Origin: Escherichia coli
Lineage (GTDB): Bacteria; Pseudomonadota; Gammaproteobacteria; Enterobacterales; Enterobacteriaceae
NCBI GenBank assembly: GCA_023061495.1
Contig: GCA_023061495.1_3643.1
Reading direction: 5' to 3' (one strand)
Length of the DNA: 64,000 nt
Position numbers and translations under genes: made by a program. The notes under the pieces were generated by a model that worked only from the letters and a program-made list of their open reading frames with translations, had not been told where the DNA came from and did not search any database. Below, one piece after another: positions 285 through 58,778 of the stretch. Each line of letters opens with the position of its first letter. Position 1 is the first letter of the stretch.

Positions 285-575
285 TTACAGCTTATTATCG
301 ATAGTATCTAAAATATCTACAGCAAGATCTGCCATTTTTCTAACATACTCTGCAAACTCAACAGGATCCTTGATCAAAGAATTCACAGGGTCGTACCCTA
401 GAGCGTTCAAAATGGCTGCAGCATCTACAACCTTCTCATCATTTGCGGAGATCTCACCGTCAAACTTGTGGGTCCATTTTGAGTCAATCTTGGCATGGCA
501 GAATTGGTCCATGCTTATTACACCATCTTTTTTAAACGATTCGGTGTTATCAGTATCCAAAACTAAATCCATCAT
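285..575 (-). CDS. hypothetical early protein
   Basis: 96-aa ORF co-oriented with the minus-strand early block; no recognisable motif. Confidence 0.45.
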   Translation of the reverse strand: MMDLVLDTDNTESFKKDGVISMDQFCHAKIDSKWTHKFDGEISANDEKVVDAAAILNALGYDPVNSLIKDPVEFAEYVRKMADLAVDILDTIDNKL

Positions 576-592
576 AGTGGCACCTCACTGTT

Positions 593-991
593 TCAGTCTA
601 GCTTTTCTTCAACAACCCCGTAGCTCGGGGCAGAGTCAAGAGCTTTTTGGTTTAAAAGTGGTGTAGCAGAATCTGCAAACGGTGTCCAAGTTTTTGTTCT
701 GGCATTCCAGTAATGCTTCACTCTGGAATCTGGATGCACTATAACAAAAACTTTTTCACTTGTCAACACATTAATTTCTTCCACACCCTTGCTGACAATT
801 TCTCCGTCATAGCCCCCAGTCTGGTACCCTTCGTACCAGGTTCTTGCATAGGCATAGCCAGCCTGCCAGCATGCAGCCTCCTCCGAGGTGGAGACTACGT
901 AGAAGTCTTTCTCAAATTCTGGGATACGTCCTTGCTTTACGCTCCAAGCTCCGCGAATTTTCATTGTTACTTTGAAAAGCTTGTTCTTCAT
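593..991 (-). CDS. hypothetical early protein
   Basis: 132-aa ORF, co-oriented, tight spacing to neighbours. Confidence 0.5.
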   Translation of the reverse strand: MKNKLFKVTMKIRGAWSVKQGRIPEFEKDFYVVSTSEEAACWQAGYAYARTWYEGYQTGGYDGEIVSKGVEEINVLTSEKVFVIVHPDSRVKHYWNARTKTWTPFADSATPLLNQKALDSAPSYGVVEEKLD

Positions 992-992
992 A

Positions 993-1247
993 CTACCGCT
1001 CTACAATCTCTACGTCTGTTCCTACACCGAAGGCATAGTAATGTTCTTCCCCAAAGTAATACTTGGGGACACCAGCTTTGATCAGGTCTAACCCGCGAAT
1101 AAATACCACACCGTGTGATACAGTGGAATGCTTCTGACGCACAGGATCGTTGTCAGGCAACCATTCAAAGTACACCGCAGGTACAACCTTCCCTTTAAGA
1201 AAGGATTGCCCCAAGTAGACGTTAGAATCAAGAATTTTGACCTTCAT
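993..1247 (-). CDS. hypothetical protein, MKVKxLDSN paralog family member 1
   Basis: 84 aa; shares N-terminal MKVK[IVF]LDSN.Y.GQ...GKV and C-terminal G.DVEIVE with ORFs 1228..1461 and 4851..5084. Confidence 0.55.
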   Translation of the reverse strand: MKVKILDSNVYLGQSFLKGKVVPAVYFEWLPDNDPVRQKHSTVSHGVVFIRGLDLIKAGVPKYYFGEEHYYAFGVGTDVEIVER

Positions 1248-1461
1248 GATCGTCCTCCACTATCTCCACATCCTCCCCTAGGGCAAAGTTGTAGGCCCAC
1301 TGACTGTCAAAGCATTCCTGAGACGCGCCAGCGGCAATAAGATCTGCCCCTTTTATTTTTAAAAGGTCAGGATAATCTTCGTTAGGGATAGCGGTAAACA
1401 CTTTTCCAACTAAAGGCTCTTGACCAATATAGAAGTTTGAATCTAAAACTTTCACTTTCAT
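1228..1461 (-). CDS. hypothetical protein, MKVKxLDSN paralog family member 2
   Basis: 77 aa; paralog of 993..1247 (MKVKVLDSNFYIGQ...EDVEIVE); overlaps upstream neighbour by a few codons. Confidence 0.55.
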   Translation of the reverse strand: MKVKVLDSNFYIGQEPLVGKVFTAIPNEDYPDLLKIKGADLIAAGASQECFDSQWAYNFALGEDVEIVEDDHEGQNS

Positions 1462-27914: not shown

Positions 27915-28011
27915 NNNNNNNNNNNNNNNNNNNNNNNNNNNNNNNNNNNNNNNNNNNNNNNNNNNNNNNNNNNNNNNNNNNNNNNNNNNNNNNNNNNNNN
28001 NNNNNNNNNNN
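27915..28011. other. assembly gap (97 N) flanked by homopolymer T runs
   Basis: literal N run in sequence. Confidence 0.95.
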
Positions 28012-32965: not shown

Positions 32966-33376
32966 ATGTCTAAAATGCTATATATCGTGCGTGGTCTACC
33001 AGGTTCTGGCAAATCAACACTGGCAAATGCACTATCTTTAGAAGGGCTGTATCCACATTTTGAGAACGACATGTTCTGGTACGACGACGATGGAAATTAC
33101 AACTGGGATGCAAGTAAAGTAACACTTGCAGCAAAATGGTGCAAAGATAACGTAGAAGATATGATGCATATGGGATACGACCGTATCGTGGTAAGCAACA
33201 CATTCACAAAAGAAAAACATGTGCAAGAGTATGTTGACATGGCTATCCGTCATGGGTATAGTTACACCGTAATCGTGGTTGAAAACAGGCACGGTAACAA
33301 AAGCATCCATAATGTTCCTGATAAGGTTGTGGATCGTATGGAGCGCGAGCTTAAAAACTGCATTAAACTTAAGTGA
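32966..33376 (+). CDS. polynucleotide 5'-kinase (P-loop, Pnk-like)
   Basis: N-terminal P-loop RGLPGSGKSTLA as in T4 Pnk kinase domain; start moved from ORF-track 32894 to RBS-supported ATG at 32966. Confidence 0.65.
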   Translation: MSKMLYIVRGLPGSGKSTLANALSLEGLYPHFENDMFWYDDDGNYNWDASKVTLAAKWCKDNVEDMMHMGYDRIVVSNTFTKEKHVQEYVDMAIRHGYSYTVIVVENRHGNKSIHNVPDKVVDRMERELKNCIKLK

Positions 33377-33383
33377 GGAATGC

Positions 33384-33938
33384 ATGAAATATTTTGTAAC
33401 AAGCGACACACACTTTCTCCACCAGCGGGTTATGGAGTTTGATTCATGTCAAAAGCACCGATCTCAGTATAATAGCAATCTTGACAGTATGAACGAAGGA
33501 ATCATCGCAGAGTGGAACTCTGTTGTATCACCGGAAGACACTGTGTTTCACTTGGGTGATATTGCATGCACTAAGGATAAGAATATCAACAACTTACTTC
33601 CAGATATTCTAAATATGTTGAACGGACATATTATTCTTGTTAGAGGAAACCATGACACAAGGACTACTGTAAGAATTATGAAAGAGTTCGGTCATGATGT
33701 TGTAGATTATTACGAGCTTAGACACAACAAAAATTTGATCTGCATGAGTCATTACCAATTCGCAACATGGAACCGCAAGCCCCACGGATCAGTTCAACTA
33801 TTCGGTCATGCTCACGGAACCACACAACAGTTGTTTGGCAGGCAGTTTGATGTAGGTTGGGATGTGTGGGGGAGACTGTTACCATTAGAAGAGGCATATA
33901 GCATTGCAATGTGTTTTGATATTGACAGCAGGGAGTAA
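33384..33938 (+). CDS. calcineurin-like metallophosphoesterase
   Basis: motifs SDTHF (D-x-H), HLGDIA (GD), RGNHD (GNHD/E); start at RBS-supported ATG 33384. Confidence 0.7.
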   Translation: MKYFVTSDTHFLHQRVMEFDSCQKHRSQYNSNLDSMNEGIIAEWNSVVSPEDTVFHLGDIACTKDKNINNLLPDILNMLNGHIILVRGNHDTRTTVRIMKEFGHDVVDYYELRHNKNLICMSHYQFATWNRKPHGSVQLFGHAHGTTQQLFGRQFDVGWDVWGRLLPLEEAYSIAMCFDIDSRE

Positions 33939-33985
33939 TCCCTGCTATTTTAAAGAAAATTGCCACACAAGGAGAATGAGGAGAT

Positions 33986-34336
33986 ATGAAAGAGGAGGAT
34001 AAGCTGCCATACCTTAAAGTCCCATTTGGAATACTGTCTATGTCAAAAGTTTTGAATGATACAACTGGAGAGGTTGTTGTTCTTGACTTGTATGACAAGA
34101 TCGTATACTGCTACCTGTACAACTGGTATAAGCTTGGAGGAAATTCACGCTTCACACCCAGCACAAGGAAAATTGCAGCAGATATTGGGATAAAGAAAAC
34201 AAAAGCAGCATCGTGCGTTAAAACTTTAGAATGTGCAGGTGTGGTTGAAACATCCACACAAGGGAGAGGTAAAAGATGCACATTTTCCAAAGTTTTGCCG
34301 CCAGAAGAAGTTATTCGAATGGCAACAACTGGTTAG
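33986..34336 (+). CDS. putative HTH DNA-binding protein
   Basis: helix-turn-helix-like segment TRKIAADIGIKKTKAASCVKTLE; directly upstream of palindrome cluster. Confidence 0.45.
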   Translation: MKEEDKLPYLKVPFGILSMSKVLNDTTGEVVVLDLYDKIVYCYLYNWYKLGGNSRFTPSTRKIAADIGIKKTKAASCVKTLECAGVVETSTQGRGKRCTFSKVLPPEEVIRMATTG

Positions 34337-34422
34337 ACCAGTAAAAACTTAAATATCTGTACTATAAAGGTTCGTATGTTTTATGTTCACTTTAGAGCTG
34401 AGATTATTAACTGCCCGTGAGA

Positions 34423-34571
34423 CGGACACTACTGTCCGCCACGCGGACACTAACTGTCCGCAATACGGACACATAAAGAATATAACTAAAATAACTAAAT
34501 AATAAAAATAAAAGATCTAGTACTTATGGTACTAAAGTACATATACTTAACTTATGTAGAATATACTAGAT
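34423..34571. promoter_or_regulatory. palindrome/iteron-rich regulatory region (operator- or origin-like)
   Basis: CGGACA-N4-TGTCCG (34423..34438), CGGACA-N5-TGTCCG (34444..34460), half-site CGGACAC (34466..34472); tandem ATAACTAAA x2 (34482..34499); inverted repeat ATCTAGTA/TACTAGAT (34515..34522 and 34564..34571) in AT-rich DNA. Confidence 0.45.
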
Positions 34572-34609
34572 CCTAAGTACCATGTTTTAAATTTATTACT
34601 TATTATGGG

Positions 34610-34945
34610 TAGTGTCGGCCCTTCATTGGCACTCGCCTACGGGGGGCGAGATGCCGGGCCTCCATAGTGCACACAATAACAGGAGTGCATACATGCAGGA
34701 CGGTTAACATGTGGGGGGAGCGAAGCGATAGCGCAGGCCAAAGGCCGAGCACTAATGTGGACCACCGACGAAAGCTTGCCAGCGCCGTAAGGAGTCGGTT
34801 GAGAGACTCCCGCGTGAGTTTGGTTAAAGTTTATGTGTGGAAACGGACAAGAAGGCTCCTAAATCTTCCCACAGCTGTGTAAACTCTACCAAGTAAGGCA
34901 ATCGCACCAGTTTGATAGAAAAGCTCGTTACAAGGCGATACAGTG
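34610..34945 (+). ncRNA. candidate structured non-coding RNA (GC-rich block A)
   Basis: about 330 nt, markedly more GC-rich than flanks; extended complementary segments (e.g. CGGCCC...GGCACTCGCC...GGCGAGATGCC...GGGCC); only ORF is Arg-rich and non-genic in character; ends at T-run 34939..34944; strand assumed. Confidence 0.3.
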
Positions 34946-34977
34946 AGTTTTTTCTATAACTTGAAGAGGAGGCAGTT

Positions 34978-35556
34978 ATGAGTTCACTCAAAGATGACCG
35001 CGAAAAGATTGCAAAACGTTATCAGAATGAAGAACAGATGGAGAAAACTTTCAAGTGGAAGCCAGGTTTCCAGCGTAATCATTCTAACGCTCGTGATCGT
35101 AAGCATCCGGATAAGTGGCTAACACCGCCAAATGATGGTATGCAGGTTGGTGATGAGAAGGAGCTATCACCTGGAAAAGATGGCAACTACATTCGCACTA
35201 AGGACGCTGGTCCAAAGGATGACAGCTATCTTGTAGATAAGGTTCTTGATGGTATTGATGTAGATGTTGACACCACACGGAACTTTTTTCTTGGGTGGTA
35301 TCGCACAGGTTTTTTCGACATCAAGGCCATTCGTCGTGTTTGTGATATTAAAAAGTCTGCATATGATGACGACTCGTTACATCGCACCCTGAGGCAATAT
35401 TCAGAAAGATATGGTCATCCGGTTATCACTCTTGACGATGTTCACGAAGTGATGTATCATGCAGAGGTTGTTGCAGGCAGATTTGGTGATGCATATCTTG
35501 ATATCCTTTCTGCAAACGATGAGGTAATGTTGAATAAGATTTACTACGAACGTTGA
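34978..35556 (+). CDS. hypothetical protein
   Basis: 192-aa ORF with GAGGAGG RBS. Confidence 0.5.
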   Translation: MSSLKDDREKIAKRYQNEEQMEKTFKWKPGFQRNHSNARDRKHPDKWLTPPNDGMQVGDEKELSPGKDGNYIRTKDAGPKDDSYLVDKVLDGIDVDVDTTRNFFLGWYRTGFFDIKAIRRVCDIKKSAYDDDSLHRTLRQYSERYGHPVITLDDVHEVMYHAEVVAGRFGDAYLDILSANDEVMLNKIYYER

Positions 35557-35566
35557 GGAGAGCTTA

Positions 35567-35755
35567 ATGAACAATCCAGTAGCAAAGAATTGTAATAAGT
35601 TCAACAAGTCTGCAATTCACACTGACAGGAAAAAGAACTGGTCACCGGACATTGACGAGGAGCTTGAGAATTACTTTGAAGATCTAGTTACCAATGCAGG
35701 TGAGGTTGCGATTAAAGAATATGCAGACAGGAGAGATAAGGCCGGAATCTGTTGA
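35567..35755 (+). CDS. hypothetical small protein
   Basis: 62-aa ORF. Confidence 0.4.
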   Translation: MNNPVAKNCNKFNKSAIHTDRKKNWSPDIDEELENYFEDLVTNAGEVAIKEYADRRDKAGIC

Positions 35756-35780
35756 CAAAAATAATGTTACCTGATAAGAT
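35752..35780 (+). promoter_or_regulatory. sigma70-like promoter (TTGACA-N17-TAAGAT)
   Basis: -35 at 35752..35757, -10 at 35775..35780; a second TG-n-TACAAT extended -10 lies 15 nt downstream. Confidence 0.5.
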
Positions 35781-35832
35781 CTGCAATATGATGTGATACA
35801 ATTTTTAACTTACGAGGTCTACAGGTAATGCT

Positions 35833-36075
35833 ATGTTTAAGGTTAAGCTCGTTTTTCGTTCCATGAATGAGGACTATTTAGAAGATGAAGGTGAATTTCG
35901 TGCACTGGATGATGCAATAGATTTTGCCAACGACTTAGCTTGTATGAATACGGGTTATGGGTTGTGTTGTTGGGATGGTGGTGTTCAGATTGGTGATAGC
36001 AAGATCTTCTACTTCTACCCTGAGCCCGATAACAAACAAATTAAGTATGTTTTATTTATTTGTGCTTTACAATGA
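35833..36075 (+). CDS. hypothetical small protein
   Basis: 80-aa ORF. Confidence 0.45.
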   Translation: MFKVKLVFRSMNEDYLEDEGEFRALDDAIDFANDLACMNTGYGLCCWDGGVQIGDSKIFYFYPEPDNKQIKYVLFICALQ

Positions 36076-37327: not shown

Positions 37328-37424
37328 GCTGGGTAAGCCCTTTGGCAAGGGCGAGGATTTTTAATCCTGAAAATAGACGAGGTAGTCGTTGAATACATAG
37401 GTGGTTCGATTCCATCACCTAGCA
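37328..37424 (+). tRNA. atypical tRNA-like gene; anticodon loop reads UUUUUAA (UUU, Lys-like) but about 30 nt lie between anticodon arm and T-arm
   Basis: acceptor GCTGGGT/ACCTAGC (one G-U), D-arm GCCC/GGGC, canonical T-arm GGTGG-TTCGATT-CCATC; fold not fully resolved by hand; no encoded CCA. Confidence 0.4.
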
Positions 37425-37432
37425 CCTTTTTT

Positions 37433-57962: not shown

Positions 57963-58778
57963 ATGGCTACGCTTTATAGTGATATATTGATGGACCCACA
58001 GACAGGCGATTTGGCGATAGACAAAGGTCTTGAGTTGATAGACTCAAACCAAGTAAGTCTGCGCCAGCGCCTGTGGATGAGGTTTAATACCTGGAAAGGG
58101 AGCTGGTACTTTGACGAGTTGTTTGGCTTCCCTTATATGGACTTTCTCAGTAAGAAGGTCATGAAGACTGTTCTTGATAACAAGATTATGGAAGTGGCAA
58201 GACAAGAGCCGGATGTGCTAAACATCATAAACTTCCAATCTACTATGGATCGAAGATCGAGAACATATCAAGCGTTCTTTGAGGTTGTTACCAAGGAGAA
58301 CGAGATTGTAAGACTTGCTTTCGTAGGTCTTGATCAGTTTACCTATCCACAGCCTGATGCTGGGACAACCTCTCTCTGTGATGATGAAGGTTGGATTAAG
58401 TGGGCTAATAAACTGTACTACCTGATCAACTTTAGATTGCCTAGAACCGGGGATGCCACATGGTGGAACCAGTATGCCGGTCCTGAGATGGAAAACCCGA
58501 TCCCTGTAGGCTCTCTGTTGACTCAGGATAAAGATCTGCTGATGACTGAGGCAGAACAAACCATTAACCGCAATACCTGGACGCTTGCTCCAGATGAGCG
58601 CGAATATTCTGGTGTTATTGCTACATCTAATGATGAGGCTATTGCCAACCAGTCTGACGTNNNNNNNNNNNNNNNNNNNNNNNNNNNNNNNNNNNNNNNN
58701 NNNNNNNNNNNNNNNNNNNNNNNNNNNNNNNNNNNNNNNNNNNNNNNNNNNNNNGGTCGTGCTATTGATGTTAACTAA
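57963..58778 (+). CDS. hypothetical baseplate protein, interrupted by assembly gap
   Basis: ORF spans the N run 58661..58754, so true length and frame are unverified. Confidence 0.35.
   Translation: MATLYSDILMDPQTGDLAIDKGLELIDSNQVSLRQRLWMRFNTWKGSWYFDELFGFPYMDFLSKKVMKTVLDNKIMEVARQEPDVLNIINFQSTMDRRSRTYQAFFEVVTKENEIVRLAFVGLDQFTYPQPDAGTTSLCDDEGWIKWANKLYYLINFRLPRTGDATWWNQYAGPEMENPIPVGSLLTQDKDLLMTEAEQTINRNTWTLAPDEREYSGVIATSNDEAIANQSDXXXXXXXXXXXXXXXXXXXXXXXXXXXXXXXXGRAIDVN
58661..58754. other. assembly gap (94 N)
   Basis: literal N run. Confidence 0.95.

What the first reader, a model, noticed from the sequence alone, without database searches (positions are those of the whole stretch)
34337..34600. 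Palindrome and iteron cluster downstream of an HTH protein: operator or origin candidate
Directly after HTH-protein gene 33986..34336 come two near-perfect palindromes CGGACA-N4/5-TGTCCG plus a third half-site, a tandem ATAACTAAA direct repeat, and a 57-bp inverted-repeat-bounded AT-rich segment (ATCTAGTA ... TACTAGAT). This resembles repressor operators or an iteron-type origin with an adjacent DNA-unwinding element. It lies at the boundary between the divergent early region and the tRNA/late region.
Basis: seen in the sequence. Interest (0 to 1): 0.55.

Follow-up and report, generated by a model that had tools for sequence, protein, structure and literature searches.

The report
Candidate replication origin of rV5-like phage
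A unique array of protein-binding repeats, followed by the easiest-to-melt DNA in this rV5-like E. coli phage genome, sits right after a small gene whose product resembles the DNA-binding half of a proven replication initiator, so this is most likely the phage's still-undefined replication origin, but nobody has tested it.

Summary
The window is a Vequintavirus (an rV5/FV3-like coliphage). Directly after the winged-helix gene 33986..34336 lie six TGYCCG/CGGACA half-sites, 10-11 bp apart and alternating in orientation. They form three tandem 21/22-bp units of consensus CTGYCCG-N5-CGGACAC. This is the only such array in the genome. Relatives carry 2, 3 or 4 units.

Next comes a 130-bp tract of 19% GC. 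It is the least stable DNA in the window, is almost invariant across the genus, and holds the window's only exact match to the E. coli oriC 13-mer consensus.

The gene product is homologous, in sequence and in predicted fold, to the N-terminal DNA-binding domain of RepA of the Vibrio cholerae satellite PLE (PDB 4RO3). RepA is a proven initiator that binds semi-palindromic repeats at its origin. The phage protein has only that domain.

Best reading: an iteron-type origin, or origin-like initiator-binding module (confidence about 0.57). Rivals are a local transcriptional operator, a relic or anti-satellite module, and a packaging site. No replication, binding or transcript data exist. I rate it a new member of a known kind, of moderate interest.

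The parts
33922..33951 (+). Sigma-70-like promoter (TTGACA-18-TATTTT preceded by TG) upstream of the winged-helix gene. It corresponds to promoter P76 annotated in rV5.
   Evidence: 10 of 12 matches; rV5 annotation. No intrinsic terminator was found between it and 35100, so this transcript may run through the array.
33986..34336 (+). Gene for a 116-aa winged-helix protein (rV5 gp075). It is a RepA_N / PLE-RepA-like N-terminal DNA-binding domain with no C-terminal domain, and is the candidate origin-binding protein.
34337..34407 (.). Conserved 3' flank of the gene. On the minus strand it contains a sigma-70-like promoter (34389 to 34361, TGAACA-17-TATAGT) that points back into the gene.
   Evidence: Positions 34337-34366 are invariant in 9 phages. 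In the divergent Logan lineage the -10 reads TATAAT and the -35 reads TGGACA (read). Promoter function is not shown: the scan found 2 sites where shuffles gave 2.6.
34408..34472 (.). Iteron array: three tandem 21/22-bp units, each holding the dyad TGYCCG-N5-CGGACA. The six half-sites are 10-11 bp apart, so all face the same side of the helix.
   Evidence: (D1). In 41 units from 12 phages, CTG-Y-CCG and CGGACAC are invariant apart from one CGGGCA unit (40 of 41 at that position), while the 5-bp spacer varies except for its central A. Relatives carry 4, 3 or 2 units, lost or gained as whole units. There is no other copy in the window or in the rest of the rV5 genome.
34472..34606 (.). AT-rich tract (about 19% GC), the candidate DNA-unwinding element.
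- Tandem 9-mers ATAACTAAA x2 at 34482-34499.
- oriC-type 13-mer GATCTTTTATTTT at 34505-34517 on the minus strand.
- Inverted GATCTAGTA arms at 34514-34522 and 34564-34572, giving two GATC sites.
- Four GTAC cores.
   Evidence: It is the least stable 100 bp in the window, 5.3 sd from the mean. It has the lowest GC of the whole rV5-type genome. It is invariant in 9 GenBank phages apart from 1-nt length changes in A runs, and differs at a few positions in a divergent lineage. It holds the only exact match in 64 kb to GATCTnTTnTTTT. The core AAAAGATCT also occurs in the AT tracts next to the homologous gene in three other genera.
34608..34900 (+). GC-rich conserved non-coding block (60-65% GC between 34610 and 34820) separating the AT tract from the next gene. 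Its role is unknown. It could be part of the origin, or a structured leader or RNA.
   Evidence: One search gives the composition and the conservation. No Rfam family matches. The ORF annotated here in rV5 (ORF 78) shows almost only radical non-synonymous changes between relatives (my reading). Folding z-scores are only -1.6 on the plus strand and -2.2 on the minus strand. Covariation does not exceed the controls.
34978..35556 (+). Downstream 192-aa protein of unknown function. Like the winged-helix gene and the intergenic region, it is restricted to the genus and is always found next to them. Whether it takes part is unknown.
   Evidence: phrog_12226, unknown function. No Pfam, NCBIfam or PDB hit. 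Found only in Vequintavirus. No similarity to the C-terminal parts of longer homologues of the winged-helix protein.

Best explanation
This is an iteron-type replication origin, or at least an origin-like initiator-binding module, of a Vequintavirus.

Proposed mechanism:
1. Inferred from homology: dimers of the 116-aa winged-helix protein bind the dyad-symmetric units CTGYCCG-N5-CGGACAC. The protein is a homologue of the DNA-binding N-terminal domain of the PLE satellite initiator RepA and of staphylococcal RepA_N initiators.
2. Shown in the sequence: the half-sites are one helical turn apart and the units two turns apart. Two to four dimers would therefore line up on one face of the DNA.
3. 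Inferred: the bound dimers form a nucleoprotein complex that strains or bends the DNA.
4. Inferred by analogy with lambda O/ori-lambda, iteron plasmids and oriC: the strain is relieved in the directly adjoining 130-bp tract, which is the least stable duplex of the genome and carries an oriC-type 13-mer.
5. Speculative, by analogy with PLE, which needs the helper phage's SF1B helicase: the protein has no C-terminal recruiting domain, so loading of the phage's own replisome must rely on another factor or on the opened structure itself. The rV5 replisome includes a gp4-like primase-helicase, a T7-like polymerase and a PIF1/RecD-like SF1B helicase.
6. Possible: transcription from the upstream promoter runs through the array, since no terminator was found, and could assist opening.
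For: (1) Protein.
- PDB 4RO3 is the best sequence hit: E 2.9e-6 alone and 9.8e-13 with a family profile, covering residues about 9-92.
- PMC7145576 shows that 4RO3 is the N-terminal domain of PLE RepA. That paper shows RepA binds a semi-palindromic repeat by gel shift, and that both the repeat and repA are needed for PLE replication.

(2) DNA.
- The array is the strongest hexamer cluster in the window, with a chance expectation of about 1e-7.
- It is unique in the genome.
- Its hexamers are invariant while the spacers vary, across 41 units.
- The period is 21/22 bp, and relatives differ by whole units, carrying 2 to 4.
- The adjoining tract is the least stable DNA in the window, has the lowest GC in the genome, is nearly invariant, and holds the only exact oriC 13-mer consensus match in the window.

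(3) Comparative.
- In Mydovirus, Seunavirus and Henunavirus a homologous 105-aa protein sits next to two 23-bp semi-palindromic boxes and an AT tract that shares the core AAAAGATCT. The protein passes the DUF6945 cut-off at 28.6 bits, matches phrog_8102, and aligns to the window protein at E 1e-5.
- That module lies in the divergent intergenic region.

(4) Analogue.
- An unrelated high-GC phage contig (L090) carries three TGTCCG-N5-CGGACA dyads at 21-bp spacing inside an O-like initiator gene, followed by an A-rich tract. This is the lambda-type arrangement.

(5) Position.
- The array lies 1.5 kb from the main cumulative GC-skew minimum. The rV5 authors could not define an origin from skew.

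(6) Operator signs are missing.
- No promoter overlaps the array.
Against: - The protein is only the DNA-binding domain. It has no C-terminal domain of the kind RepA_N, PLE RepA or lambda O use to recruit partners, and its length is typical of a small transcription factor.
- Pfam RepA_N itself does not hit. DUF6945 scores 27.3 bits, just under its cut-off of 28.
- The gene, the array and the downstream gene are confined to one genus.
- There are no DnaA boxes or IHF sites in or beside the array.
- The GC-skew switch coincides with the change in gene orientation, so it is not independent evidence.
- rV5 has another repeat-rich 2.6-kb non-coding region at 104-106.6 kb that could hold an origin.
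- Phages with T7-like replisomes can start replication from promoters without an initiator protein (my background knowledge).
- There are no binding, replication or transcript data for any Vequintavirus.
Confidence: 0.57

Rival explanations
1. Local transcriptional control element. The winged-helix protein is a small repressor or activator, derived from an initiator-type DNA-binding domain, and its sites act in one of three ways. They could be a roadblock to read-through from the upstream promoter into the tRNA, lysis and terminase genes. They could be an operator for the leftward promoter-like site at 34389-34361. Or they could be upstream activating sites for a promoter hidden in the AT tract.
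For: - The protein is small and consists only of a DNA-binding domain, and many winged-helix regulators score close to it.
- No terminator follows the gene, so something may have to limit read-through.
- A conserved sigma-70-like promoter on the minus strand lies about 20 bp left of the array.
- In the other genera the two boxes lie between a good TTGACA-17-GATAAT promoter and the ribosome-binding site of the gene, a position compatible with autoregulation.
- Iteron-plasmid initiators commonly double as autorepressors (background knowledge), so this rival can be true together with the origin reading.
Against: - No sigma-70-like or rV5 late-type (TGGTAAAATA) promoter overlaps or adjoins the array on the plus strand.
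- There are no sites at the gene's own promoter, and none elsewhere in about 137 kb.
- This reading does not explain why the array abuts the least stable and most conserved DNA of the genome, with an oriC-type 13-mer.
- The best homologue is an initiator, not a regulator.
Confidence: 0.2
2. Relic or conflict module. The gene plus array is the remnant of a captured RepA_N-type replicon from a satellite or plasmid, in which the initiator gene was truncated just before its internal repeats. It is either no longer the phage's working origin, or the domain-only protein serves in phage-satellite conflict by occupying a satellite's origin or acting as a decoy.
For: - The closest relative is the initiator of a phage satellite.
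- RepA_N genes typically carry their repeats inside the gene (background knowledge), and a lambda-like example of that arrangement was found here (L090).
- Here the gene stops 75 bp before the array and no C-terminal domain follows.
- The module is genus-specific.
- ICP1 is known to have recruited a RepA-like DNA-binding domain for an anti-satellite nuclease.
Against: - The AT tract is nearly invariant, and the hexamers are invariant across more than 100 phages whose coding DNA differs by 5-12%. That indicates ongoing selection rather than decay.
- No E. coli chromosome among 5,426 complete genomes carries a similar array or AT tract.
Confidence: 0.09
3. Packaging recognition site or genome terminus. 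The array is a pac- or cosB-like set of sites for a small DNA-binding packaging protein, placed upstream of the late and terminase region.
For: - Repeated sites on one face of the helix beside bendable AT-rich DNA resemble cosB and pac sites (background knowledge).
- The large terminase gene lies about 4 kb downstream, and no small terminase subunit is annotated.
- Three short-read contigs end inside the array.
- One Vequintavirus paper infers headful packaging.
Against: - The protein matches no terminase family.
- In the related Mydovirus KPP-1 the 514-bp terminal repeat lies at 116.3 kb, in a convergent non-coding region. The homologous winged-helix gene and its boxes lie at 71.5 kb, 45 kb away.
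- rV5 has the analogous convergent non-coding region at 104-106.6 kb.
- Contigs ending at 21-bp tandem repeats is ordinary assembler behaviour.
Confidence: 0.05

Closest known systems
RepA and the origin of the Vibrio cholerae phage satellite PLE (PDB 4RO3; Barth et al., Nucleic Acids Res 2020, PMC7145576)
   Same: - Both have semi-palindromic repeats in a non-coding region of the same element.
- Both elements depend on a phage replisome that includes an SF1B helicase.
   Different: - The PLE protein has an additional C-terminal domain, which the phage protein lacks.
- The inverted arms of the PLE repeat are 13 bp, against 6-7 bp here.
- PLE is a satellite, whereas this is a 137-kb virulent phage.
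- Binding and the requirement for replication were shown for PLE. Nothing has been shown here.
RepA_N family plasmid initiators (pSK41 and pTZ2162 RepA; PDB 4PQL, 4PT7, 4PTA, 5KBJ)
   Same: - Dimers bind direct repeats that contain inverted sub-repeats meeting at a central A or A-tract, as described in PMC7145576.
   Different: - The Pfam RepA_N model does not match.
- Those proteins carry a host-specific C-terminal domain.
- Their repeats lie inside the rep gene.
- They come from Gram-positive plasmids.
Lambda O protein and ori-lambda
   Same: - Both have several dyad-symmetric repeats bound by dimers of a winged-helix domain.
- In both, an AT-rich region that melts follows directly.
- Transcription through or near the origin is possible in both.
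   Different: - ori-lambda lies inside the O gene, and O has a C-terminal domain that binds P.
- The only link to O-like families here is a weak PHROG match (E 0.008), so homology is not established.
- What I state about lambda is from background knowledge.
Iteron plasmid origins (pPS10, pSC101, R6K, F, P1) and the E. coli oriC unwinding element
   Same: - Both have repeats of 19-22 bp in helical phase beside an AT-rich unwinding region.
- One exact GATCTnTTnTTTT 13-mer is present.
- In the other Vequintavirinae genera the order is AT tract, then repeats, then the gene, as in these plasmids.
   Different: - Plasmid Rep proteins have two winged-helix domains and bind the repeats as monomers.
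- DnaA boxes are a regular part of those origins and are absent here.

Membership tests
RepA_N / PLE-RepA-like initiators (Pfam RepA_N PF06970; DUF6945 PF22182) | N-terminal winged-helix DNA-binding domain with the DnaD-NTD/RepA_N fold | tested here: met
   [not shown]
RepA_N / PLE-RepA-like initiators (Pfam RepA_N PF06970; DUF6945 PF22182) | Passes the curated Pfam threshold of the family model | tested here: inconclusive
   RepA_N gives no hit at E <= 1. DUF6945 scores 27.3 bits against a cut-off of 28. The Mydovirus homologue scores 28.6 and a remote homologue 31.9, so both pass.
RepA_N / PLE-RepA-like initiators (Pfam RepA_N PF06970; DUF6945 PF22182) | C-terminal domain that recruits host or helper replication proteins | tested here: not met
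   The protein ends at residue 116, just after the winged helix. The 192-aa neighbour shows no similarity to the C-terminal parts of longer homologues.
RepA_N / PLE-RepA-like initiators (Pfam RepA_N PF06970; DUF6945 PF22182) | Cognate semi-palindromic direct repeats at the origin | tested here: met
   Three units of CTGYCCG-N5-CGGACAC with an invariant central A lie 75 bp after the gene. That the protein binds them is not shown.
Iteron-type theta origin | Three or more direct repeats in helical phase, unique in the replicon | tested here: met
   The period is 21/22 bp, relatives carry 2 to 4 units, and there is no second array in about 137 kb.
Iteron-type theta origin | Adjacent AT-rich DNA-unwinding element | tested here: met
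   The least stable 100 bp of the window starts at the last base of the array. It has the lowest GC in the genome and contains an exact oriC-type 13-mer. Actual unwinding was not tested.
Iteron-type theta origin | DnaA boxes or IHF sites beside the repeats | tested here: not met
   The only matches are two one-mismatch DnaA boxes about 370-410 bp away and one one-mismatch IHF site at 34905.
Iteron-type theta origin | Replication starts here and depends on the repeats and the protein | not testable with these tools
   This needs marker-frequency sequencing, deletions, or an origin-cloning assay.
Repressor operator | Binding sites overlap or adjoin a promoter that they control | tested here: inconclusive
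   No promoter-like site overlaps the array. One weak minus-strand site ends about 20 bp to its left. No late-type motif occurs in the intergenic gap. The consensus scans used are crude.
Direct terminal repeat or pac site | Coincides with the virion DNA ends or the first packaging cut | not testable with these tools
   There is only indirect evidence against it. In KPP-1 the terminal repeat is 45 kb from the homologous gene.
Known RNA families (Rfam 15) | Reaches a family's gathering score | tested here: not met
   Only tRNAs pass in the window. The best sub-threshold hit in 34250-35050 is rli43, at 19 bits against a gathering score of 100.

The most novel reading that the evidence does not exclude
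The module may be a RepA_N-type replicon that has been pared down to a DNA-binding-domain-only protein plus its repeats, in a virulent Gram-negative myophage. Two more novel readings remain open.
- It fires without any recruiting domain. In that case the conserved GC-rich block at 34608-34900 could supply a structured RNA or DNA element that primes replication or loads the phage replisome.
- It is a player in phage-satellite conflict, with the protein occupying or mimicking a satellite's origin.
Probability: 0.12. Interest if true: 0.75.

Novelty: new member of a known kind. Interest (0 to 1): 0.5.

Why it matters
- No origin of replication has been defined for rV5-like phages. The rV5 genome paper tried skew analysis and found only transcription-linked switches. 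I found no paper mentioning iterons in this subfamily.
- These phages are widely used in the BASEL collection and in therapeutic cocktails against E. coli O157 and urinary-tract strains.
- A concrete 200-bp candidate with a named binding protein makes the question directly testable.
- It would also give a handle for engineering, such as origin-based amplification or conditional replication.
- It extends the RepA_N/PLE-RepA type of DNA-binding domain, described as rare in Gram-negative systems, to a whole subfamily of enterobacterial myophages, in a form consisting of the domain alone.

Tried and rejected
- **IMG/VR scan with the HTH protein.** It found no relative.
- **IMG/VR scan with the invariant 21-mer.** It found nothing.
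- **IMG/VR scan with the dyad pattern.** Most hits were chance matches. L023, for example, was unrelated. Only L090 was informative.
- **Single-sequence AlphaFold model.** It was unusable at pLDDT 45. I replaced it with an alignment-based model.
- **Profile comparison of the protein family with the L090 initiator.** It was not significant at 11% probability, so the shared hexamer is an analogy, not shown homology.
- **Split-initiator idea.** I tested whether the downstream 192-aa protein is the lost C-terminal domain. I found no similarity to anything.
- **Structured RNA in the GC-rich block.** Folding z-scores are weak, only one compensatory pair was found, and the covariation measures do not exceed the shuffles. 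The question is left open.
- **A small protein gene in the GC-rich block (rV5 ORF 78).** I rejected this because the substitutions between relatives are mostly radical non-synonymous changes.
- **Terminal-repeat idea.** It was weakened by the position of the terminal repeat in KPP-1.
- **Context of remote homologues.** They sit only on contigs under 2 kb.
- **Satellite or plasmid carrying the same array.** No E. coli genome has one.
- **One literature search was badly framed and returned nothing useful**.

Full report
**What the window is.** The region 33000-36000 is 93-95% identical to about 120 Vequintavirus genomes: rV5, FV3, Murica and BASEL phages. The set includes some records mislabelled as Campylobacter phages. 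The finding covers the first 264 nt of a 641-nt intergenic gap (34337-34977). The gap lies between a 116-aa helix-turn-helix gene (33986..34336, rV5 gp075) and a 192-aa gene of unknown function (34978..35556). The neighbouring genes are:
- RNA ligase and Sir2 on the minus strand to the left;
- a kinase and a phosphoesterase on the plus strand;
- seven tRNAs from 36859;
- then spanins and the large terminase subunit.

**Checking the observation.** The register is better described differently. Six half-sites (TGCCCG, CGGACA, TGTCCG, CGGACA, TGTCCG, CGGACA) start at 34412, 34423, 34433, 34444, 34455 and 34466. They make three tandem 21/22-bp units, each with the dyad TGYCCG-N5-CGGACA.
- Five exact hexamers in 49 bp is the strongest cluster of any hexamer in the window. 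The chance expectation is about 1e-7, while the window-wide count of the hexamer is ordinary.
- The single-stranded fold of 34405-34600 is 5.5 sd more stable than shuffles.
- The tract that follows (34472-34606, 19% GC) contains the least stable 100 bp of the whole window: -102 kcal/mol against -133 +/- 5.8.
- Taking the rest of the rV5 genome into account, that tract has the lowest GC in the genome.

**Comparative anatomy.** I aligned nine GenBank relatives and added three lineages from public read assemblies.
- The hexamers are invariant apart from one CGGGCA unit, whereas the 5-bp spacers and the linkers between units vary. That is the signature of protein-binding sites. The consensus over 41 units is CTGYCCG-YNANR-CGGACAC.
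- The number of units differs by whole units. There are four in rV5, FV3, Murica, Gotham and others. There are three in this window and in nimi, with different units missing. There are two in navn.
- The AT tract is identical in all nine GenBank relatives except for 1-nt length changes in A runs. It is more conserved than the flanking genes.
- The array occurs nowhere else in the window or in the remaining 75 kb of rV5.
- The AT tract contains the window's only exact match to the E. coli oriC 13-mer consensus GATCTnTTnTTTT, at 34505-34517 on the minus strand. It also contains two GATC sites within 9-bp inverted arms and four GTAC cores.

**The protein.** Pfam gives borderline hits to DUF6945 and HTH_36. 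PHROGs places the protein in a family annotated 'replication initiation protein', with weak matches to O-like families. That annotation is automatic, not experimental. Homologues above 86% identity exist only in Vequintavirus, and an exhaustive HMMER search found only a dozen remote relatives.

The decisive lead was PDB 4RO3.
- It matches at E 2.9e-6 with the single sequence and 9.8e-13 with a family profile.
- Barth et al. (PMC7145576) identify 4RO3 as the N-terminal domain of RepA of the V. cholerae satellite PLE. They show that RepA binds a semi-palindromic repeat in the PLE non-coding region, and that both the repeat and repA are required for PLE replication.
- The phage protein consists of this domain only.

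**Other genera.** A 105-aa homologue is conserved in Mydovirus, Seunavirus and Henunavirus. It passes the DUF6945 cut-off at 28.6 bits, matches phrog_8102, and aligns to the window protein at E 1e-5. There it sits at the divergent intergenic region. It is preceded by two 23-bp boxes (TCAAWTTGAGCAYAGGCT, the first a full palindrome) and by an AT tract that shares the core AAAAGATCT with our tract. The trio of winged-helix gene, semi-palindromic repeats and AT tract is therefore a subfamily-wide module, with different half-sites in different genera. In those genera the order (AT tract, repeats, gene) is that of classical iteron plasmids.

**An independent analogue.** A high-GC IMG/VR phage contig (L090) carries three TGTCCG-N5-CGGACA dyads at 21-bp spacing inside an O-like initiator gene, followed by an A-rich repeat tract. 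This is the lambda arrangement. Homology of its protein to ours is not demonstrable.

**Weighing the readings.**
- **Origin (0.57).** This reading explains the initiator-type domain, the single locus, the helical phasing, the unit-number variation, and the abutting tract, which is the least stable and most conserved DNA in the genome and carries a 13-mer.
- **Operator (0.20).** This reading is weakened by several results. No promoter overlaps the array. There are no sites at the gene's own promoter, and there is no regulon. It remains possible. A conserved but statistically unremarkable minus-strand promoter lies about 20 bp left of the array. No terminator separates the gene from the array. 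Initiators also often double as autorepressors.
- **Packaging site or terminus (0.05).** This is unlikely. In KPP-1 the 514-bp terminal repeat is 45 kb from the homologous gene, and rV5 has the corresponding convergent non-coding region at 104-106.6 kb.
- **Relic or anti-satellite role (0.09).** This is suggested by the satellite affinity of the domain. Strong conservation argues against it, as does the absence of any similar array in 5,426 E. coli genomes.

**What remains unexplained.**
- It is unclear how a protein that is only a DNA-binding domain would recruit a replisome.
- The GC-rich conserved block (34608-34900) has no known role. It is not in Rfam. It does not behave like coding sequence. 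It shows no significant covariation with the shallow diversity available.
- The repeat-rich 2.6-kb non-coding region of rV5 may be a second origin or the packaging region.

**Novelty.** RefSeq already carries the automatic label 'replication initiation protein' for this gene, and some GenBank records mark a 'repeat_region' over the array. I found no paper that describes an origin, iterons or the link to PLE RepA for this subfamily. I therefore class it as a new member of a known kind: an iteron origin with a RepA_N-like binder, with the unusual feature that the binder is the domain alone.

Noticed in passing
window 34608-34900: A GC-rich (60-65%) non-coding block follows the AT tract and is highly conserved. 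rV5 and the BASEL records annotate small ORFs here (for example rV5 ORF 78), but the substitutions between relatives are almost all radical non-synonymous changes. There is no Rfam hit, and many G-U-compatible one-sided changes on the plus strand, but no significant covariation.
   Followed up: partly
L142 5014-7619 (rV5 NC_011041 104013-106618; outside the window): This 2.6-kb stretch has no ORFs and lies at a convergent-transcription point. It is packed with repeats (ACTGTTTAC-type motifs eight or more times, a 20-nt exact repeat, and an 18-nt perfect inverted repeat) and holds the second most AT-rich 100 bp of the genome. In kind it matches the place where Mydovirus KPP-1 has its 514-bp terminal repeat. 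It may be the packaging or terminus region, or another origin.
   Followed up: partly
L090 819-879 (IMGVR_UViG_3300037493_002298): A high-GC phage contig carries three TGTCCG-N5-CGGACA dyads at 21-bp spacing inside an O-like replication initiator gene (537..1292). They are followed by GAACACAAGA x2 in an A-rich tract. This is a lambda-style origin inside the gene that uses the same hexamer as the coliphage.
   Followed up: partly
proteins P0011, P0013, P0017 (remote homologues of the window protein): Longer relatives (153-217 aa) end in acidic tails that finish with PF (…DEAPF, …ENPPF, …DPDAPF). This is reminiscent of the C-terminal tip of bacterial SSB that recruits replication proteins. The window protein has no such tail.
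   Followed up: no
window 34361-34389 (minus strand): A sigma-70-like promoter (TGAACA-17-TATAGT) points back into the winged-helix gene. A divergent lineage reads TGGACA and TATAAT at the same place. It could produce an antisense transcript of the gene.
   Followed up: partly
window 27915-28011 and 58661-58754: There are two runs of N (masked or missing sequence) in the window.
   Followed up: no
window 37328-37426: ARAGORN calls a 99-nt tRNA-like gene with an abnormal four-base anticodon (atcc). Rfam scores it just above the tRNA threshold (33.7 bits), and GenBank records call it 'tRNA-OTHER'.
   Followed up: no
window-wide, e.g. 46549, 51712, 40347, 59126: The rV5 'late' motif TGGTAAAATA occurs 19 times at one mismatch or fewer, against 5.9 expected. 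Most copies lie on the coding strand of each half of the window. None lies in the 34337-34977 gap.
   Followed up: partly
L134, L135, L136 (Logan contigs); MG065672.1: Three short-read contigs end inside or at the end of the iteron array, and one GenBank record starts just left of it. This is most simply explained by assembly breaks at the 21-bp tandem repeats or by mixed unit numbers in the sample.
   Followed up: partly
PLSDB CP057073.1 (137,565 bp): A complete Vequintavirus genome is deposited as a non-mobilizable 'plasmid' of an E. coli isolate from pooled cattle faeces. Separately, eighteen GenBank 'Campylobacter phage' records are rV5-like coliphage genomes.
   Followed up: no
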